Assembly (NCBI GenBank): GCA_041389085.1
Contig: JAWKSL010000001.1
Span: forward strand, 102,765 to 166,764
Direction of reading: 5' to 3'
DNA: 64,000 bases
Source: Minisyncoccota bacterium
Lineage (GTDB): Bacteria > Patescibacteriota > Minisyncoccia > UBA6257 > 1-14-0-10-44-23
The notes below the pieces were generated by a model, which had not been told where the DNA came from, did no database searches, and saw only the letters and a program-made list of their open reading frames with translations. Shown here piece after piece: positions 52,643 to 55,170 of the stretch (position 1 is the first letter of the stretch; each line of letters opens with the position of its first letter). A program made the translations under genes and the position numbers.

Positions 52643-52694
52643 AGCTCTATATTAGCCTAATTTTGGCTTTACGTCGTGGATATTTTTTTGGTCT

Positions 52695-53291
52695 CTATGA
52701 GTCTTTTATGTCTTCAATGAGCTCTGGGAACGTTTCTTGTGTAAAATGCCCCCTATCCTCGAACCATTGAAGTTTAATGTGTGGGATATTTTTCTTATAT
52801 TTCTCCGCGTCTTGATATGGTACGGCTTCGTCGTCTTTGCTTTGGTATAGGAAAATGCGTTCTGTCTGCTCACCAAGCCCTTCTATACTTTCTCCAAGCT
52901 CAAAATCTGCAAGTGAATCCTTGCAGTGCTCTGTGTCGTATGGCGGCGCAACAAGATGGACGGATTTTATCTTCTTTGGGAATTTGTTCTCAGCTAAGTA
53001 TTTTGCGAGAAAAATGCCACCCAAAGAGTGACCAATCAGAACAACCTCGTCATTCAGTAGAGGAAAAAGTTTTTCAAACCACATCTTCCACTCAGGGTAT
53101 CGAGCGTTCTTAGCGTTTGGCATCTTAGGATAAAGAACATCAAAATCTGGAAGTACTGATTGAAGCCTATCCTTCCAGTCCCTTGCCTTTATTTTCTCTA
53201 TAGTTAGCTTGCAAGACTCCAAATACCCTAAGTATTCTTCGTAGGTCTCGAAAGTTGTACCTCCATGGATTATTACGATCTGCTGCTTCAT
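52695..53291 (-). CDS. alpha/beta hydrolase (RBBP9/YdeN-like serine hydrolase)
   Basis: GHSLGG nucleophile elbow. Confidence 0.65.
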   Translation of the reverse strand: MKQQIVIIHGGTTFETYEEYLGYLESCKLTIEKIKARDWKDRLQSVLPDFDVLYPKMPNAKNARYPEWKMWFEKLFPLLNDEVVLIGHSLGGIFLAKYLAENKFPKKIKSVHLVAPPYDTEHCKDSLADFELGESIEGLGEQTERIFLYQSKDDEAVPYQDAEKYKKNIPHIKLQWFEDRGHFTQETFPELIEDIKDS

Positions 53292-53356
53292 ATCAAAACT
53301 ATACCTAAAATGAGAAATAACGCCTTCACACGTACGTGTGAGGCGTTTATTTTAAA

Positions 53357-53678
53357 TGCTCCGCGCAGGGATCGAACCTGCGACATCTTCGTTACGCTTT
53401 ACCTACTATTACTAGTAGTGCGGACTATATCATCGTCTTTCTATTTCTAGCGAAGACGCAAGGCGCTTCCCGTTGTTACGTAGCATGCTACGTAACAGCC
53501 GAGTACTCCCTTTTCGGGATAGTCTCTGAACCTTCCTACCCAAGGGCCAAGGCTTGGCTGCTGATTGCCCAGCCTAGACTGGGTTTCCAGCAATTCACCT
53601 TGTTTTTCAATCTGCATTTCTGCGAACCTGCGACATCTTCGTTAACAGCGAAGCGTTCTACCACTGAACTACCGCGGA
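53357..53678 (-). tRNA. tRNA-Asn(GUU) gene interrupted by group I intron
   Basis: minus strand: UCCGCGG-UA-GUUCAGUGGUAGAAC-G-CUUCG-CUGUUAA-CGAAG-AUGUC-GCAGG-UUCGAUC-CCUGC-GCGGAGC-A when exons joined (near-identical D/anticodon arms to E. coli tRNA-Asn); acceptor pairing imperfect in hand fold. Confidence 0.55.
53394..53644 (-). ncRNA. group I intron (approximate bounds)
   Basis: R element GGUUCAGAGACUA (53515-53532) and S element GAUGAUAUAGUCC (53421-53433) forming P7; P9-like hairpin CUACUAGUAAUAGUAG; terminal G; 22 nt direct repeat at 53372-53393 and 53623-53644. Confidence 0.65.
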
Positions 53679-53706
53679 ATACAGGAACGATAACAAAAAA
53701 CCCTTT

Positions 53707-55170
53707 TTAGCTCAATAGCTCCTTTATTACCTCCTGAAGGGCAGCAGGGTTTGCTCTTCCCTTGAGCTCTGCCATAGACTTTCCAACGAAAAACATAAGG
53801 AGCTTGTCGTTCCCGCCTTTGTACTTTTCTACTGCGTCTTGGTTTTCTTCCATCACCTTTTGAACTGCTTGTGCGAGGGTTTGCGGGTCGGAAATTTGCT
53901 CAAGGCCCTCTGACTTCACTATTTCTCGAGGGTCTCCCCCATTCTCATACATTTTTGCAAGCACGTCTTTTGCTGCTCTACTGTTTATCGTTTCTTTTTC
54001 TACAAGTACGATAAGGTCGGCAAAGTTTTCTGCTGTTATCTTGCTTTTGTGTGGATCGGAAATTCCGTCTTGGATAAGAAGGCCCTTAAAGTCACTGGTA
54101 AGGTAGTTATAAGCAAGCTGCGCTGCGCGCACTTGGTCGTTTACTTCTTCTGTTTTTAGCTCAGATACTGCTTCTTCAAAAAAGGCAGCGATTGGACGCT
54201 CAAGCGTAAGCAAGCCTGCTTGTTCTGCGTTTAGGCCAAACTCTTTCTGTAGTCTTTCTCTCTTCTCCCATGGGAGCTCAGGCATTTCTTCCTTAAGCCG
54301 ATTGAAATCAAACTGAGCGATGTTTATCGGTGGAAGATCTGGCTCTGGGAAGTAGCGGTAGTCGGCACTTGTTTCCTTTATGCGCTGACTTACTGTTTGC
54401 TTATTTATATCGTCCCAGCCGCGAGTTTCTTGTACTACCTTTTCCCCTTCCTCAAGCACCTTTGTTTGGCGCTCTATTTCGTAGCGGGCTGCTGCTTCTG
54501 CCATCTTGAAGCTGGCTATGTTTTTAACCTCTACTTTTGTACCGAATTTAAGCTCACCATCTTCCATAGTTCCAAGGCTGAGGTTTACCTCTACACGCAT
54601 CTGGCCTTTTTCAATGTCTGCATCGGCTACGCCAAGATAGCGAAGAAGGAGCTGGAGCTCGCGTGCGAACTCTCCTATTTTTTCTGGAGACTTTATGCAT
54701 GGCTCGGTAACGAGCTCCATAAGAGGCACTCCTGCTCGGTTAAAGTCTACAAGCGTTATTTTCTCCCCTGCCTCGTTTGCTCCATGGGTAAGCTTCCCAG
54801 TGTCTTCTTCTAAGTGCACTCGAGTGATTTTTACTCCTGCAAGAAGCCCACCGAATACAAACGGTATGTCGTACTGGCTTATCTGATAGCCCTTTGGCAG
54901 GTCTGGGTAGAAGTAGTTTTTTCTATCGAACTTTGAAACTGCAGGAATTTCTCCGCCAATGGCGGTACCAATCTTAAGCATAGACTCGATAGCCTTCTGA
55001 TTCATGACCGGAAGGGCTCCTGGCTGCCCGGTGCAAACTGGACAGATGTGCTTATTTGGCTCGGTTTCGTCTGGATCGTTTAAACACGCGCAGAACATTT
55101 TTGTGCGCGTGTTGAGCTCGGCGTGAATTTCTAGCCCGATAACTGGTATGTACTTAGGACTATTTGTCAT
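53707..55170 (-). CDS. gatB: Asp-tRNA(Asn)/Glu-tRNA(Gln) amidotransferase subunit B
   Basis: YIPVIGLEIHAELNTRTKMFCAC N-terminus and GatB core. Confidence 0.9.
   Translation of the reverse strand: MTNSPKYIPVIGLEIHAELNTRTKMFCACLNDPDETEPNKHICPVCTGQPGALPVMNQKAIESMLKIGTAIGGEIPAVSKFDRKNYFYPDLPKGYQISQYDIPFVFGGLLAGVKITRVHLEEDTGKLTHGANEAGEKITLVDFNRAGVPLMELVTEPCIKSPEKIGEFARELQLLLRYLGVADADIEKGQMRVEVNLSLGTMEDGELKFGTKVEVKNIASFKMAEAAARYEIERQTKVLEEGEKVVQETRGWDDINKQTVSQRIKETSADYRYFPEPDLPPINIAQFDFNRLKEEMPELPWEKRERLQKEFGLNAEQAGLLTLERPIAAFFEEAVSELKTEEVNDQVRAAQLAYNYLTSDFKGLLIQDGISDPHKSKITAENFADLIVLVEKETINSRAAKDVLAKMYENGGDPREIVKSEGLEQISDPQTLAQAVQKVMEENQDAVEKYKGGNDKLLMFFVGKSMAELKGRANPAALQEVIKELLS

What the first reader, a model, noticed from the sequence alone, without database searches (positions are those of the whole stretch)
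53357..53688. tRNA-Asn(GUU) gene split by a group I intron with a 22 nt exon-derived direct repeat, next to gatB
On the minus strand, the 5' part (about 53645-53678) gives a textbook tRNA-Asn acceptor/D/anticodon arm with anticodon GUU. The T-arm and 3' end sit about 250 nt downstream (53357-53393). The intervening sequence carries the group I catalytic-core elements R (GGUUCAGAGACUA) and S (GAUGAUAUAGUCC), a P9-like hairpin and a terminal G. A 22 nt segment (TAACGAAGATGTCGCAGGTTCG on the minus strand) occurs at both junctions, so the exact splice sites are ambiguous. That duplication is unusual for group I introns. The 3' acceptor strand seems two nucleotides short in my hand fold, so this could also be a decaying copy. 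The tRNA lies immediately downstream of gatB, the enzyme that makes Asn-tRNA(Asn) by transamidation.
Basis: partly seen in the sequence, partly recalled or inferred. Interest (0 to 1): 0.75.

Follow-up and report, generated by a model that had tools for sequence, protein, structure and literature searches.

The report
Intron-split tRNA-Asn gene with recombination scar
A self-splicing group I intron interrupts the asparagine tRNA gene of a tiny-genome (Patescibacteria) bacterium, an arrangement published in 2026, but this copy also has a unique 22-base duplication and a shortened tRNA end that look like a recent recombination accident.

Summary
On the minus strand there is a tRNA-Asn(GUU) 5' exon (53678-53645), a 250-nt group I intron (53644-53395; Rfam Intron_gpI 81.6 bits) and a 3' exon (53394-53357), just downstream of gatB. 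An exact 22-nt repeat sits at both junctions.

The kind is already published. Nakagawa et al. 2026 (PMC13011429) describe subgroup IA introns at position 35/36 of tRNA-Asn in Patescibacteria and show that they self-splice in vitro. One pattern scan found at least 120 such loci.

The splice site is not ambiguous. Only 35/36 gives a 5' exon ending in U and an intron ending in G, and the homologs use the same site.

Two features are unique to this locus:
- The 22-nt repeat (0-2 nt shared in 111 homologs). It replaces the intron's P1 loop and guide sequence with tRNA positions 36-57. The tRNA T arm, GCAGGUUC, nearly matches the homologs' GCAGCUUC, so I read it as a recombination scar between intron-bearing and intronless alleles.
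- A 3' acceptor strand 2 nt short (no such gap in any homolog). A relative with 96% identical GatB has a normal intronless gene at the same place.

The ribozyme core is intact, but P1 and P2 are weakened. Whether a working tRNA results is open. The gatB adjacency is lineage-specific (0 of 120 loci).

The parts
53707..55170 (-). gatB (487 aa), the upstream neighbour. It is not functionally tied to the intron.
   Evidence: Pfam GatB_N and GatB_Yqey. Best relatives are Cand. Harrisonbacteria / Paceibacterota. gatB lies near an intron-bearing tRNA-Asn in 0 of 120 other loci.
53645..53678 (-). tRNA-Asn(GUU) 5' exon, canonical positions 1-35, ending CUGU.
   Evidence: It is 100% identical to the intronless tRNA-Asn of L001.
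53395..53644 (-). Group I intron of 250 nt, subgroup IA type, inserted at 35/36. No homing endonuclease ORF.
   Evidence: Rfam RF00028 at 81.6 bits, within the homolog range of 51-93 bits. Homologous to at least 120 loci, mostly Patescibacteria, that pair this intron core with a tRNA-Asn-type 3' exon. P7.1 and P7.2 helices lie between P7 and P3'.
53623..53644 (-). Repeat copy 1: the first 22 nt of the intron, identical to tRNA positions 36-57. It occupies the P1 loop, the guide sequence, J1/2 and the first nucleotide of P2.
   Evidence: In the alignment to 15 homologs it takes the place of their own P1 loop plus GCAGC-UUC.
53628..53631 (-). GCAG, the inferred internal guide sequence. It pairs with CUGU (53648-53645) to form P1, with a U.G pair at the splice site. 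By origin it is T-stem positions 49-52.
   Evidence: It aligns with the invariant GCAG that pairs with CUGU in 16 of 16 sequences (columns 43-46 with 74-77). Its 16-nt spacing to UUGA matches the 18 nt measured in homolog L143.
53614..53623 (-). P2 hairpin GCA-GAAA-UGC. Only 3 bp, or 4 bp with a bulged A.
   Evidence: Homolog P2 helices are 5-8 bp with strong covariation (columns 81-86 with 91-96).
53520..53532 (-). R element, the 5' strand of P7 (GGTTCAGAGACTA).
   Evidence: Invariant across homologs.
53469..53519 (-). P7.1 (UCCCGAAAAGGGA) and an extended P7.2 that contains a perfect 24-nt palindrome (53474-53497).
   Evidence: inverted repeat I3. The P7.2 stem is longer than in all 15 aligned homologs.
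53422..53434 (-). S element, J8/7 plus the 3' strand of P7 (GATGATATAGTCC).
   Evidence: Invariant across homologs.
53395..53395 (-). Terminal G of the intron (omega-G).
   Evidence: A G occupies this position before TAA in all homologs, which the scan pattern required.
53357..53394 (-). tRNA-Asn 3' exon (position 36 to the end). It begins with repeat copy 2 (53394-53373). The 3' acceptor strand lacks 2 nt (CC), and CCA is not fully encoded.
   Evidence: Of 111 homologs, 108 show a perfect 7-bp acceptor; the other 3 are parsing errors of my script.
53315..53352 (-). Terminator-like hairpin followed by a T-rich run, directly after the tRNA 3' end.
   Evidence: Inverted repeat I2 and the sequence itself.
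52669..53356 (-). Segment of about 690 nt that is absent from the orthologous L001 locus. It holds the terminator and an alpha/beta-hydrolase gene (52695-53291).
   Evidence: blastn of L001 against the window, Pfam. Homologs of the hydrolase sit in unrelated contexts.

Best explanation
This is a member of the published family of subgroup IA group I introns that interrupt tRNA-Asn(GUU) at anticodon-loop position 35/36 in Patescibacteria.

Inferred splicing mechanism. The precursor folds into the ribozyme. P1 forms between the last four exon nucleotides, CUGU, and the intron's GCAG at 53631-53628, with the U.G wobble at the splice site. An external guanosine cleaves after U35. The terminal G (53395) then docks, and the exons are ligated to give the GUU anticodon.

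The locus-specific twist. The first 22 intron nucleotides are not the intron's own P1 loop and guide sequence. They are a copy of tRNA positions 36-57. The tRNA T arm reads GCAG-G-UUC, and the family's guide-to-P2 segment reads GCAG-C-UUC. I therefore infer that an intronless tRNA-Asn template (an L001-like allele taken up as DNA, or a cDNA) recombined with an intron-bearing allele: full homology on the 5' side and this 8-9-nt near-identity on the 3' side, that is, homology-facilitated illegitimate recombination. The tRNA's own GCAG now stands in register as the guide sequence.

Consequences. The scar cost two P1 flanking pairs and part of P2. It also created a competing anticodon-arm mimic. 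In addition, it left two direct repeats that would allow precise deletion of the intron at the DNA level.

The 3' end. Separately or in the same episode, the 3' end of the gene was disturbed: two nucleotides are missing from the acceptor strand, and a ~690-nt insertion or deletion starts right there. As the sequence stands, the spliced tRNA would have a defective acceptor stem. I read the locus as a recently rearranged allele that is probably impaired, not as a designed feature.

Shown: the intron family, the insertion site, the uniqueness of the repeat and of the acceptor gap, the intact core, and the weak P1/P2.

Inferred: the recombination route, splicing competence, and the functional state of the product.
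For: - Rfam Intron_gpI scores 81.6 bits over the full model. Close homologs score 51-93 bits.
- The family is published, with in vitro splicing and subgroup IA assignment (PMC13011429).
- One pattern scan returned at least 120 loci, mostly Patescibacteria.
- nhmmer aligns the whole exon-intron-exon unit to many of these loci; the best 60 hits have E from 2e-30 to 2e-16.
- In the 16-sequence alignment, the consensus fold recovers P1-P9 plus P7.1 and P7.2, with 55 of 81 pairs showing compensatory changes.
- The invariant CUGU:GCAG P1 aligns with the window's exon-derived GCAG.
- GCAGCTTC is the commonest homolog string after the P1 loop (38 of 75), and the window's T arm is GCAGGTTC.
- The intron and the 3' exon share a prefix of 0-2 nt in 111 homologs, against 22 nt here.
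- L001, whose GatB is 96% identical, has a canonical intronless tRNA-Asn at the same place. Its homology to the window runs through exactly tRNA position 57.
- The 96 nt before the junction, including the 31-nt spacer, are 100% identical to L001, against 82-92% per 100 nt across most of gatB.
- The local P1+P2 fold is -11 to -17 kcal/mol in four homologs. In the window P1 is -1.4, P1 plus P2 is -4.0, and the mutually exclusive anticodon-arm mimic alone is -4.0 kcal/mol.
- The P2 3' strand UGCAGA leaves a bulged A exactly at the junction.
Against: - No second assembly or read set confirms the junction or the 2-nt gap. The only metagenome hit was a chance match, and the source MAG could not be retrieved.
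- The recombination route is reconstructed from a single locus. No ancestral allele of this lineage with a normal intron was found.
- The 100%-identical tract could reflect promoter and tRNA constraint rather than recent transfer, since other stretches reach 96%.
- If this is the only tRNA-Asn gene, as is usual in Patescibacteria and as the orthologous position in L001 suggests, an impaired product would be lethal. That argues either for function or for an error in the deposited sequence.
- P1 has no covariation (it is invariant), so the choice among three nearby GCAGs rests on alignment register and spacing alone.
Confidence: 0.7

Rival explanations
1. The gene is fully functional and is the cell's only tRNA-Asn. 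The intron splices at 35/36. The 22-nt duplication is neutral, or even helpful, for example by pre-forming a tRNA-like 5' domain. The 2-nt gap is either a local error in the MAG consensus or is tolerated through the slipped fold with a 7-bp acceptor and a 4-bp T stem.
For: - The locus occupies the same position as the intronless tRNA-Asn of L001.
- The ribozyme core is intact.
- Apart from the gap, the exons are identical to L001.
- A terminator-like hairpin follows the gene.
- ARAGORN accepts the spliced product as tRNA-Asn(gtt) in a slipped register.
- The two intron-bearing genes chosen for the splicing assays in the published survey are the sole genomic copies of their tRNAs.
Against: - None of 111 homologs shows an acceptor gap, and none shares more than 2 nt of prefix.
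- The window shows no sign of indel-rich assembly: coding density is 88% and there are long ORFs. A random error landing in these 7 nt is therefore improbable, and a ~690-nt rearrangement begins 1 nt after the tRNA end.
- As far as I know, a stack of a 7-bp acceptor on a 4-bp T stem has no precedent in bacterial elongator tRNAs.
- P1 and P2 are far weaker than in homologs.
Confidence: 0.35
2. The locus is a dead or dying pseudogene. A botched recombination crippled P1/P2 and the acceptor stem, and a functional tRNA-Asn exists elsewhere in the genome.
For: The acceptor gap, the weak P1/P2 and the competing hairpin. An adjacent insertion or deletion.
Against: - There are no substitutions in either exon or between the two repeat copies, and the core scores in the middle of the family range. 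Any decay would have to be very recent.
- No other tRNA or intron is present in the 64-kb window.
- In the two published genomes where copy number was stated, the intron-bearing tRNA gene was the sole copy.
Confidence: 0.3
3. A cassette of about 940 nt (intron core, tRNA positions 36 to the 3' end, terminator, hydrolase gene) was inserted as a unit into the T loop (57/58) of an intronless gene. This would resemble integrative elements that target tRNA genes and bring their own 3' tRNA part. The displaced native 3' end would be decaying at 52681-52664.
For: - Homology to L001 stops at position 57 and resumes at the last nucleotides of the tRNA (AGCCA) before the conserved downstream region.
- ATCCACGACGTAAAGCCA loosely resembles ATCCCTGCCCGCGGAGCCA, with about 11 of 19 positions matching.
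Against: - The putative remnant is not significant: its local alignment score is below the null mean, and the anchored test gives p of about 0.06.
- No integrase and no flanking repeats are present.
- The incoming 3' exon is identical to the native tRNA, including its lineage-specific anticodon stem.
- Hydrolase homologs are not linked to tRNA-Asn elsewhere.
Confidence: 0.12
4. The repeat is an assembly or amplification chimera rather than a biological sequence.
For: The source is a MAG. Intron-bearing and intronless alleles may coexist in a population.
Against: The junction GGTTCG|CAGAAATG shares only about 4-8 nt with either parental sequence. That is far below assembler k-mer sizes, so it must be present in reads (my inference). 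The contig is otherwise well formed.
Confidence: 0.05

Closest known systems
Subgroup IA group I introns at position 35/36 of tRNA-Asn(GUU) and tRNA-Asp(GUC) in Patescibacteria (Nakagawa, Amikura, Omae & Suzuki, mSystems 2026, PMC13011429; bioRxiv 10.1101/2025.07.03.662931)
   Same: Same phylum, same tRNA, same insertion site (U35|U36), same subgroup architecture (P7.1/P7.2) and no homing endonuclease. Standard tRNA finders miss the gene (ARAGORN found 0). The sequence is homologous to at least 120 such loci.
   Different: The first 22 intron nucleotides are a copy of the 3' exon, whereas 111 homologs share 0-2 nt. P1 and P2 are shortened. The spliced product does not fold into the canonical cloverleaf the paper reports for its cases, because the acceptor 3' strand is 2 nt short.
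Cyanobacterial and plastid tRNA-Leu(UAA) intron and other bacterial tRNA introns of subgroup IC (according to PMC13011429, 81% of the 333 bacterial tRNA introns surveyed)
   Same: A self-splicing group I intron in the anticodon loop of a bacterial tRNA. The exon-exon anticodon stem flanks P1.
   Different: Different subgroup (IC, without P7.1/P7.2), different insertion positions (for example 34/35) and a different tRNA.
Phage and viral group IA introns (IMG/VR contigs such as L013, L046, L115, L116)
   Same: The core is closely similar: AATTGCTGGAAAC, CAGC.GCCAAGC, AAGGTTCAGAGACTA and GATATAGTCC are invariant or nearly so.
   Different: These introns are not in tRNA-Asn. Their similarity to the window starts only after repeat copy 1 (query positions 78-81), which supports the view that the 22 nt are not native intron sequence.
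Homology-facilitated illegitimate recombination during natural transformation (known from Acinetobacter and Streptococcus; cited from my own knowledge, not tested here)
   Same: One junction lies in full homology (gatB, spacer, 5' exon). The other lies at a microhomology of a few nucleotides (GCAG.UUC).
   Different: This has never been shown for Patescibacteria or for intron-bearing versus intronless alleles. Here it is only an inference from the shape of the scar.

Membership tests
Group I intron (Rfam RF00028) | Conserved catalytic core (P3-P9) that scores above the family threshold with a covariance model | tested here: met
   81.6 bits against a gathering score of 50, model positions 1-253. 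The score lies inside the 51-93 bit range of 17 homologs.
Group I intron (Rfam RF00028) | 5' exon ends in a U that forms a U.G wobble pair in P1; the intron ends in G | tested here: met
   CUGU|...GCAG and ...AAGCG|UAACG. It is the only one of the 23 registers allowed by the repeat that satisfies both rules. The CUGU:GCAG pairing is invariant in 16 of 16 sequences.
Group I intron (Rfam RF00028) | Self-splicing with a guanosine cofactor | not testable with these tools
   Shown in vitro for two other members of the family (PMC13011429), not for this sequence.
Subgroup IA | Extra helices P7.1 and P7.2 between P7 and the 3' strand of P3 | tested here: met
   Rfam shows a 52-nt insertion at that point. 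RNAalifold predicts two helices there (columns 210-221 and 226-259), with compensatory changes in P7.2. Subgroup-specific covariance models were not available.
Patescibacteria tRNA-Asn 35/36 intron family (PMC13011429) | Insertion between anticodon positions 35 and 36 of tRNA-Asn(GUU) in a Patescibacteria genome | tested here: met
   Taxonomy is inferred from GatB and hydrolase relatives (Cand. Harrisonbacteria / Paceibacterota).
Patescibacteria tRNA-Asn 35/36 intron family (PMC13011429) | Spliced exons fold into a canonical cloverleaf that matches intronless homologs | tested here: not met
   The 3' acceptor strand lacks CC relative to L001 and to its own 5' strand. ARAGORN folds the product only in a slipped register with a 4-bp T stem.
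Functional bacterial tRNA-Asn gene | 7-bp acceptor stem stacked on a 5-bp T stem, with U1-A72 and G73 | tested here: not met
   U1-A72 and G73 can be drawn, but only 5 acceptor pairs follow, leaving G6 and G7 unpaired.
Integrative element at a tRNA gene (att-site duplication) | Integrase gene, and direct repeats of the tRNA 3' part flanking the element | tested here: not met
   No integrase lies between or beside the repeats. The 250-nt unit delimited by the repeats is the intron itself (228 nt lie between the two copies). The putative distal remnant is not significant.

The most novel reading that the evidence does not exclude
The locus may be a captured intermediate of intron turnover. Recombination between an intronless and an intron-bearing allele would have swapped the ribozyme's own guide sequence for a piece of its host tRNA that happens to carry the same GCAG, leaving a still-active intron flanked by 22-nt direct repeats. 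Such repeats would make the intron precisely deletable at the DNA level by slippage or RecA. This would be a concrete DNA-level route for exact group I intron loss, or for gain read in reverse, without reverse transcription or a homing endonuclease. A bolder form adds that the cell lives on a tRNA-Asn with an 11-bp acceptor/T stack.
Probability: 0.2. Interest if true: 0.55.

Novelty: new member of a known kind. Interest (0 to 1): 0.3.

Why it matters
The general phenomenon is already described, so the locus mainly confirms that these introns are very widespread.

The locus-specific value is modest but real. It shows what happens when intron-bearing and intronless alleles of the same tRNA recombine out of register. 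It shows that a host T arm can stand in for a ribozyme guide sequence. It also shows that the result is an intron bracketed by direct repeats that could be lost precisely. For genome annotators it is a caution: an intron-aware tRNA call here would report tRNA-Asn as present, although the product is structurally abnormal.

Tried and rejected
1. The source genome could not be retrieved. Neither GatB nor the hydrolase is indexed by exact sequence, although a 100% identical hydrolase record exists from a 312,629-bp contig of an NCBI Cand. Paceibacterota MAG.

2. The metagenome scan for a lineage-specific intron string (GCAGAAATGCAGATTGAAAAAC) gave one hit, in a human-gut contig. It has no intron and is a chance match.

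It showed only that the core is the common phage-like IA type.

4. Hydrolase contexts: homologs at about 71% identity sit next to unrelated genes and never next to tRNA-Asn. This gives no support for a travelling cassette of intron plus hydrolase.

5. The 'decayed native 3' end' at 52681-52664 was tested and is not significant.

6. Alternative guide sequences: the second and third GCAG (53622-53619 and 53614-53611) leave no room for P2 and do not give a more stable P1 (-0.8 and -1.3 kcal/mol, against -1.4 for the first). I rejected them in favour of the aligned first GCAG.

7. An intron in the T loop (splicing register after G57) is rejected, because the 5' exon would end in G.

8. The whole-precursor minimum-energy fold was uninformative. 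It cannot represent the P7 pseudoknot and misfolds P1.

9. No convincing P10 pairing was found by eye in the window or in the homologs.

Full report
**1. What is in the sequence**

Reading the minus strand from 53678 gives the 5' part of a tRNA: UCCGCGG-UA-GUUC-AGUGGUA-GAAC-G-CUUCG-CUGU.

- Rfam's group I intron model matches 53654-53402 at 81.6 bits, over all 253 model positions.
- The tRNA model matches 53678-53618 at 38 bits. This match is a composite of the 5' exon and the first intron nucleotides, not a real tRNA.
- The 22-mer TAACGAAGATGTCGCAGGTTCG occurs exactly twice in the window, at 53644-53623 and 53394-53373, 250 nt apart. No shuffle produced any match.
- Removing one 250-nt period gives a sequence that ARAGORN calls tRNA-Asn(gtt). 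It does so only in a slipped register with a 4-bp T stem, because the 3' acceptor strand reads GCGGA where CCGCGGA is needed.
- ARAGORN finds no tRNA at all in the unspliced 64-kb window.
- gatB (53707-55170, minus strand) is confirmed by Pfam.

**2. The splice site is not ambiguous**

The repeat allows 23 excision registers that all give the same ligated product. Group I chemistry requires the 5' exon to end in a U (paired with G in P1) and the intron to end in G. Inside the repeat the same nucleotide would have to be both. Only the register at the start of the repeat satisfies the rule: ...CUGU|UAACG... and ...AAGCG|UAACG.... That places the intron between anticodon positions 35 and 36, and the intron is 53644-53395.

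**3. Organism and the known family**

GatB and the neighbouring hydrolase have their best relatives in Candidatus Harrisonbacteria / Paceibacterota, which belong to the Patescibacteria or CPR.

A literature search found Nakagawa et al., mSystems 2026 (PMC13011429). The paper reports:

- Group I introns at the previously unusual position 35/36 in tRNA-Asn(GUU) and tRNA-Asp(GUC) of Patescibacteria.
- 15 of the 22 intron-bearing tRNA genes found in 95 complete genomes are tRNA-Asn.
- Nearly all of these introns are subgroup IA, and most lack homing endonucleases.
- Standard tRNA finders miss or mislabel them.
- Two of them self-splice precisely in vitro.

The paper does not mention any exon duplication.

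The consensus fold of the window plus 15 close homologs recovers the tRNA arms, P1, P2, P3, P4, P5, P6, P7.1, P7.2, P8 and P9. Compensatory changes occur at 55 of 81 pairs. The two helices inserted between P7 and P3' are the hallmark of subgroup IA. The window's Rfam score lies in the middle of the homologs' range of 51-93 bits, so the catalytic core is not decayed. The kind is therefore already known, and the window is one more member.

**4. What the 22-nt repeat is**

In 111 homologs whose exons I could parse, the intron and the 3' exon share a prefix of 0 nt (108 loci), 1 nt (1) or 2 nt (2). The window shares 22 nt.

All close homologs have the same 5' architecture:

- CUGU at the end of the exon;
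- a P1 loop of 6-30 nt;
- GCAG-C, the internal guide sequence;
- UU(C) followed by a P2 hairpin of 5-8 bp;
- UUGA-AAAAC leading into P3.

In the window, the GCAG that aligns with this invariant guide sequence is nucleotides 14-17 of the repeat, which are T-stem positions 49-52 of the tRNA. Its spacing to UUGA is 16 nt, against 18 nt in L143, so it fits. The two later GCAGs leave no room for P2.

The commonest homolog string after the P1 loop is GCAGCTTC (38 of 75). The tRNA T arm is GCAGGTTC. The repeat ends exactly where this near-identity ends. Viral IA introns are homologous to the window only from that point onward. The P2 3' strand, UGCAGA, implies an ancestral 5' strand CUGCA. The present UUC-GCA leaves its A bulged, as if one U had been lost at the junction.

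The simplest reading is that an intronless tRNA-Asn template recombined with an intron-bearing allele. The left junction would lie in normal homology and the right junction in this 8-9-nt near-identity. This replaced the intron's own P1 loop and guide sequence with tRNA positions 36-57. Three observations are consistent with it:

- The closest relative, L001 (GatB 96% identical), carries a canonical intronless tRNA-Asn at the same position.
- L001's homology to the window runs without a break through tRNA position 57.
- The last 96 nt before the junction, including the 31-nt spacer, are 100% identical to L001, while gatB is mostly 82-92% identical per 100 nt. This last point is suggestive only, because other stretches reach 96%.

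The 3' exon is native. It is identical to L001's tRNA over its first 30 nt, up to the missing CC, and it carries the lineage-specific anticodon stem CUUCG/CGAAG. The intron-bearing partner was therefore an allele of the same tRNA and not a distant donor.

**5. Consequences for function**

The exon-derived GCAG can still form P1 with CUGU, including the U.G pair. However, the two flanking pairs that homologs have are mismatched here. These are position 31 with the C after GCAG, and intron nucleotide +1 with the nucleotide before GCAG; the latter covaries in homologs.

Local folding results:

| Structure | Energy (kcal/mol) |
|---|---|
| P1 + P2 in four homologs | -11 to -17 |
| Window P1 alone | -1.4 |
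| Window P1 + 3-bp P2 | -4.0 |
| Window anticodon-arm mimic (5' exon with repeat copy 1) | -4.0 |

The anticodon-arm mimic is mutually exclusive with P1. Splicing is therefore plausible, but it is likely to be less efficient than in relatives. This is an inference.

The two direct repeats also mean that slippage or homologous recombination could delete the intron exactly, regenerating an intronless gene. The arrangement should therefore be evolutionarily short-lived, which agrees with the repeats being identical.

**6. The 3' end**

Of the 111 homologs, 108 show a perfect 7-bp acceptor stem, and the three exceptions are parsing errors of my script. The window lacks CC. Many homologs also end in GGAGCA, so the missing C of the CCA is not abnormal.

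Directly after the tRNA, the window carries about 690 nt that L001 lacks: a terminator-like hairpin and an alpha/beta-hydrolase gene. L001 homology resumes at 52668. I tested whether 52681-52664 is the decayed native 3' end, which would make everything from 53622 to 52682 a single insertion into the T loop. The resemblance is not significant. Hydrolase homologs lie in unrelated contexts.

The window shows no sign of an indel-prone assembly (88% coding, long ORFs). I therefore think the gap is more likely a real consequence of rearrangement at this end than a consensus error, but I cannot verify that.

As written, the mature tRNA would have a 5-bp acceptor with two unpaired Gs, or a slipped stack of 7 + 4 bp. 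Either would be unprecedented in this family. Whether the cell relies on it, has another copy, or the deposit is wrong cannot be settled from 64 kb.

**7. gatB adjacency**

The adjacency is shared with L001. It is not shared with gatB loci at 67-71% identity (no tRNA nearby) or with any of 120 intron-bearing tRNA-Asn loci. It is a lineage-specific neighbourhood, not a functional coupling.

**8. Verdict**

This is a correct and careful first-stage observation of something that was published in January 2026. It is a new member of a known kind. It has two unique blemishes that are best read as a recent recombination scar and a damaged 3' end.

Interest is modest. The most novel reading still open is that this is a live intermediate of precise intron gain or loss at the DNA level, in which a host-derived guide sequence keeps the ribozyme working.

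Noticed in passing
window 53474-53497: A perfect 24-nt palindrome, TGTTACGTAGCA/TGCTACGTAACA, forms the tip of P7.2. This stem is much longer than in all 15 aligned homologs, so it looks like a lineage-specific expansion of a peripheral helix.
   Followed up: partly
window 52669-53356 compared with L001 2029-2031: A ~690-nt insertion or deletion lies directly at the tRNA 3' end. The window has a terminator-like hairpin and an alpha/beta-hydrolase gene (52695-53291) that the closest relative lacks. Hydrolase homologs (~71% identical) sit in different neighbourhoods in other Paceibacterota.
   Followed up: partly
window 53623-53718 compared with L001 1919-2014: The last 96 nt before the repeat/intron junction are 100% identical to L001. 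They comprise the last 8 nt of gatB, the 31-nt spacer and tRNA positions 1-57. gatB itself is mostly 82-92% identical per 100 nt. This could be a recent conversion tract, or promoter and tRNA constraint.
   Followed up: partly
window 1-64000: ARAGORN finds no tRNA gene in the whole 64 kb. Rfam at gathering threshold reports only the intron and the composite tRNA hit.
   Followed up: yes
L005-L124 (IMG/VR viral contigs): The pattern GTTCARAGACTA-N70-100-GATATAGTC hit the 120-locus limit in viral contigs. Several contigs carry two or more such introns close together (for example L027, L050, L039, L072, L077, L090). Their host genes were not examined.
   Followed up: no
L002 and L003, positions 1-700: In a Cand. 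Harrisonbacteria relative, the GyrB gene upstream of the secE-nusG-rplK-tmk-gatB cluster carries an intein (Pfam Intein_splicing hit). This is another self-splicing element in these small genomes.
   Followed up: no
L132, L163, L187, L188, L204, L134, L137, L141, L185, L159, L160, L171, L198: The same pattern of intron plus tRNA-Asn 3' exon also occurs in MAGs labelled Gammaproteobacteria, Omnitrophota, Planctomycetales, Oligoflexia, Spirochaetota and Desulfocicer. These are either real occurrences outside Patescibacteria or binning contamination.
   Followed up: no
window 53342-53710 (+): A 122-codon stop-to-stop open frame runs antisense across the whole intron and tRNA. It is almost certainly spurious.
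   Followed up: no
L249 7901-7922: An exact 22-nt match to the window's P2-J2/3 string lies in a 342-kb human-gut metagenome contig. There is no intron there, so it is a chance match.
   Followed up: yes
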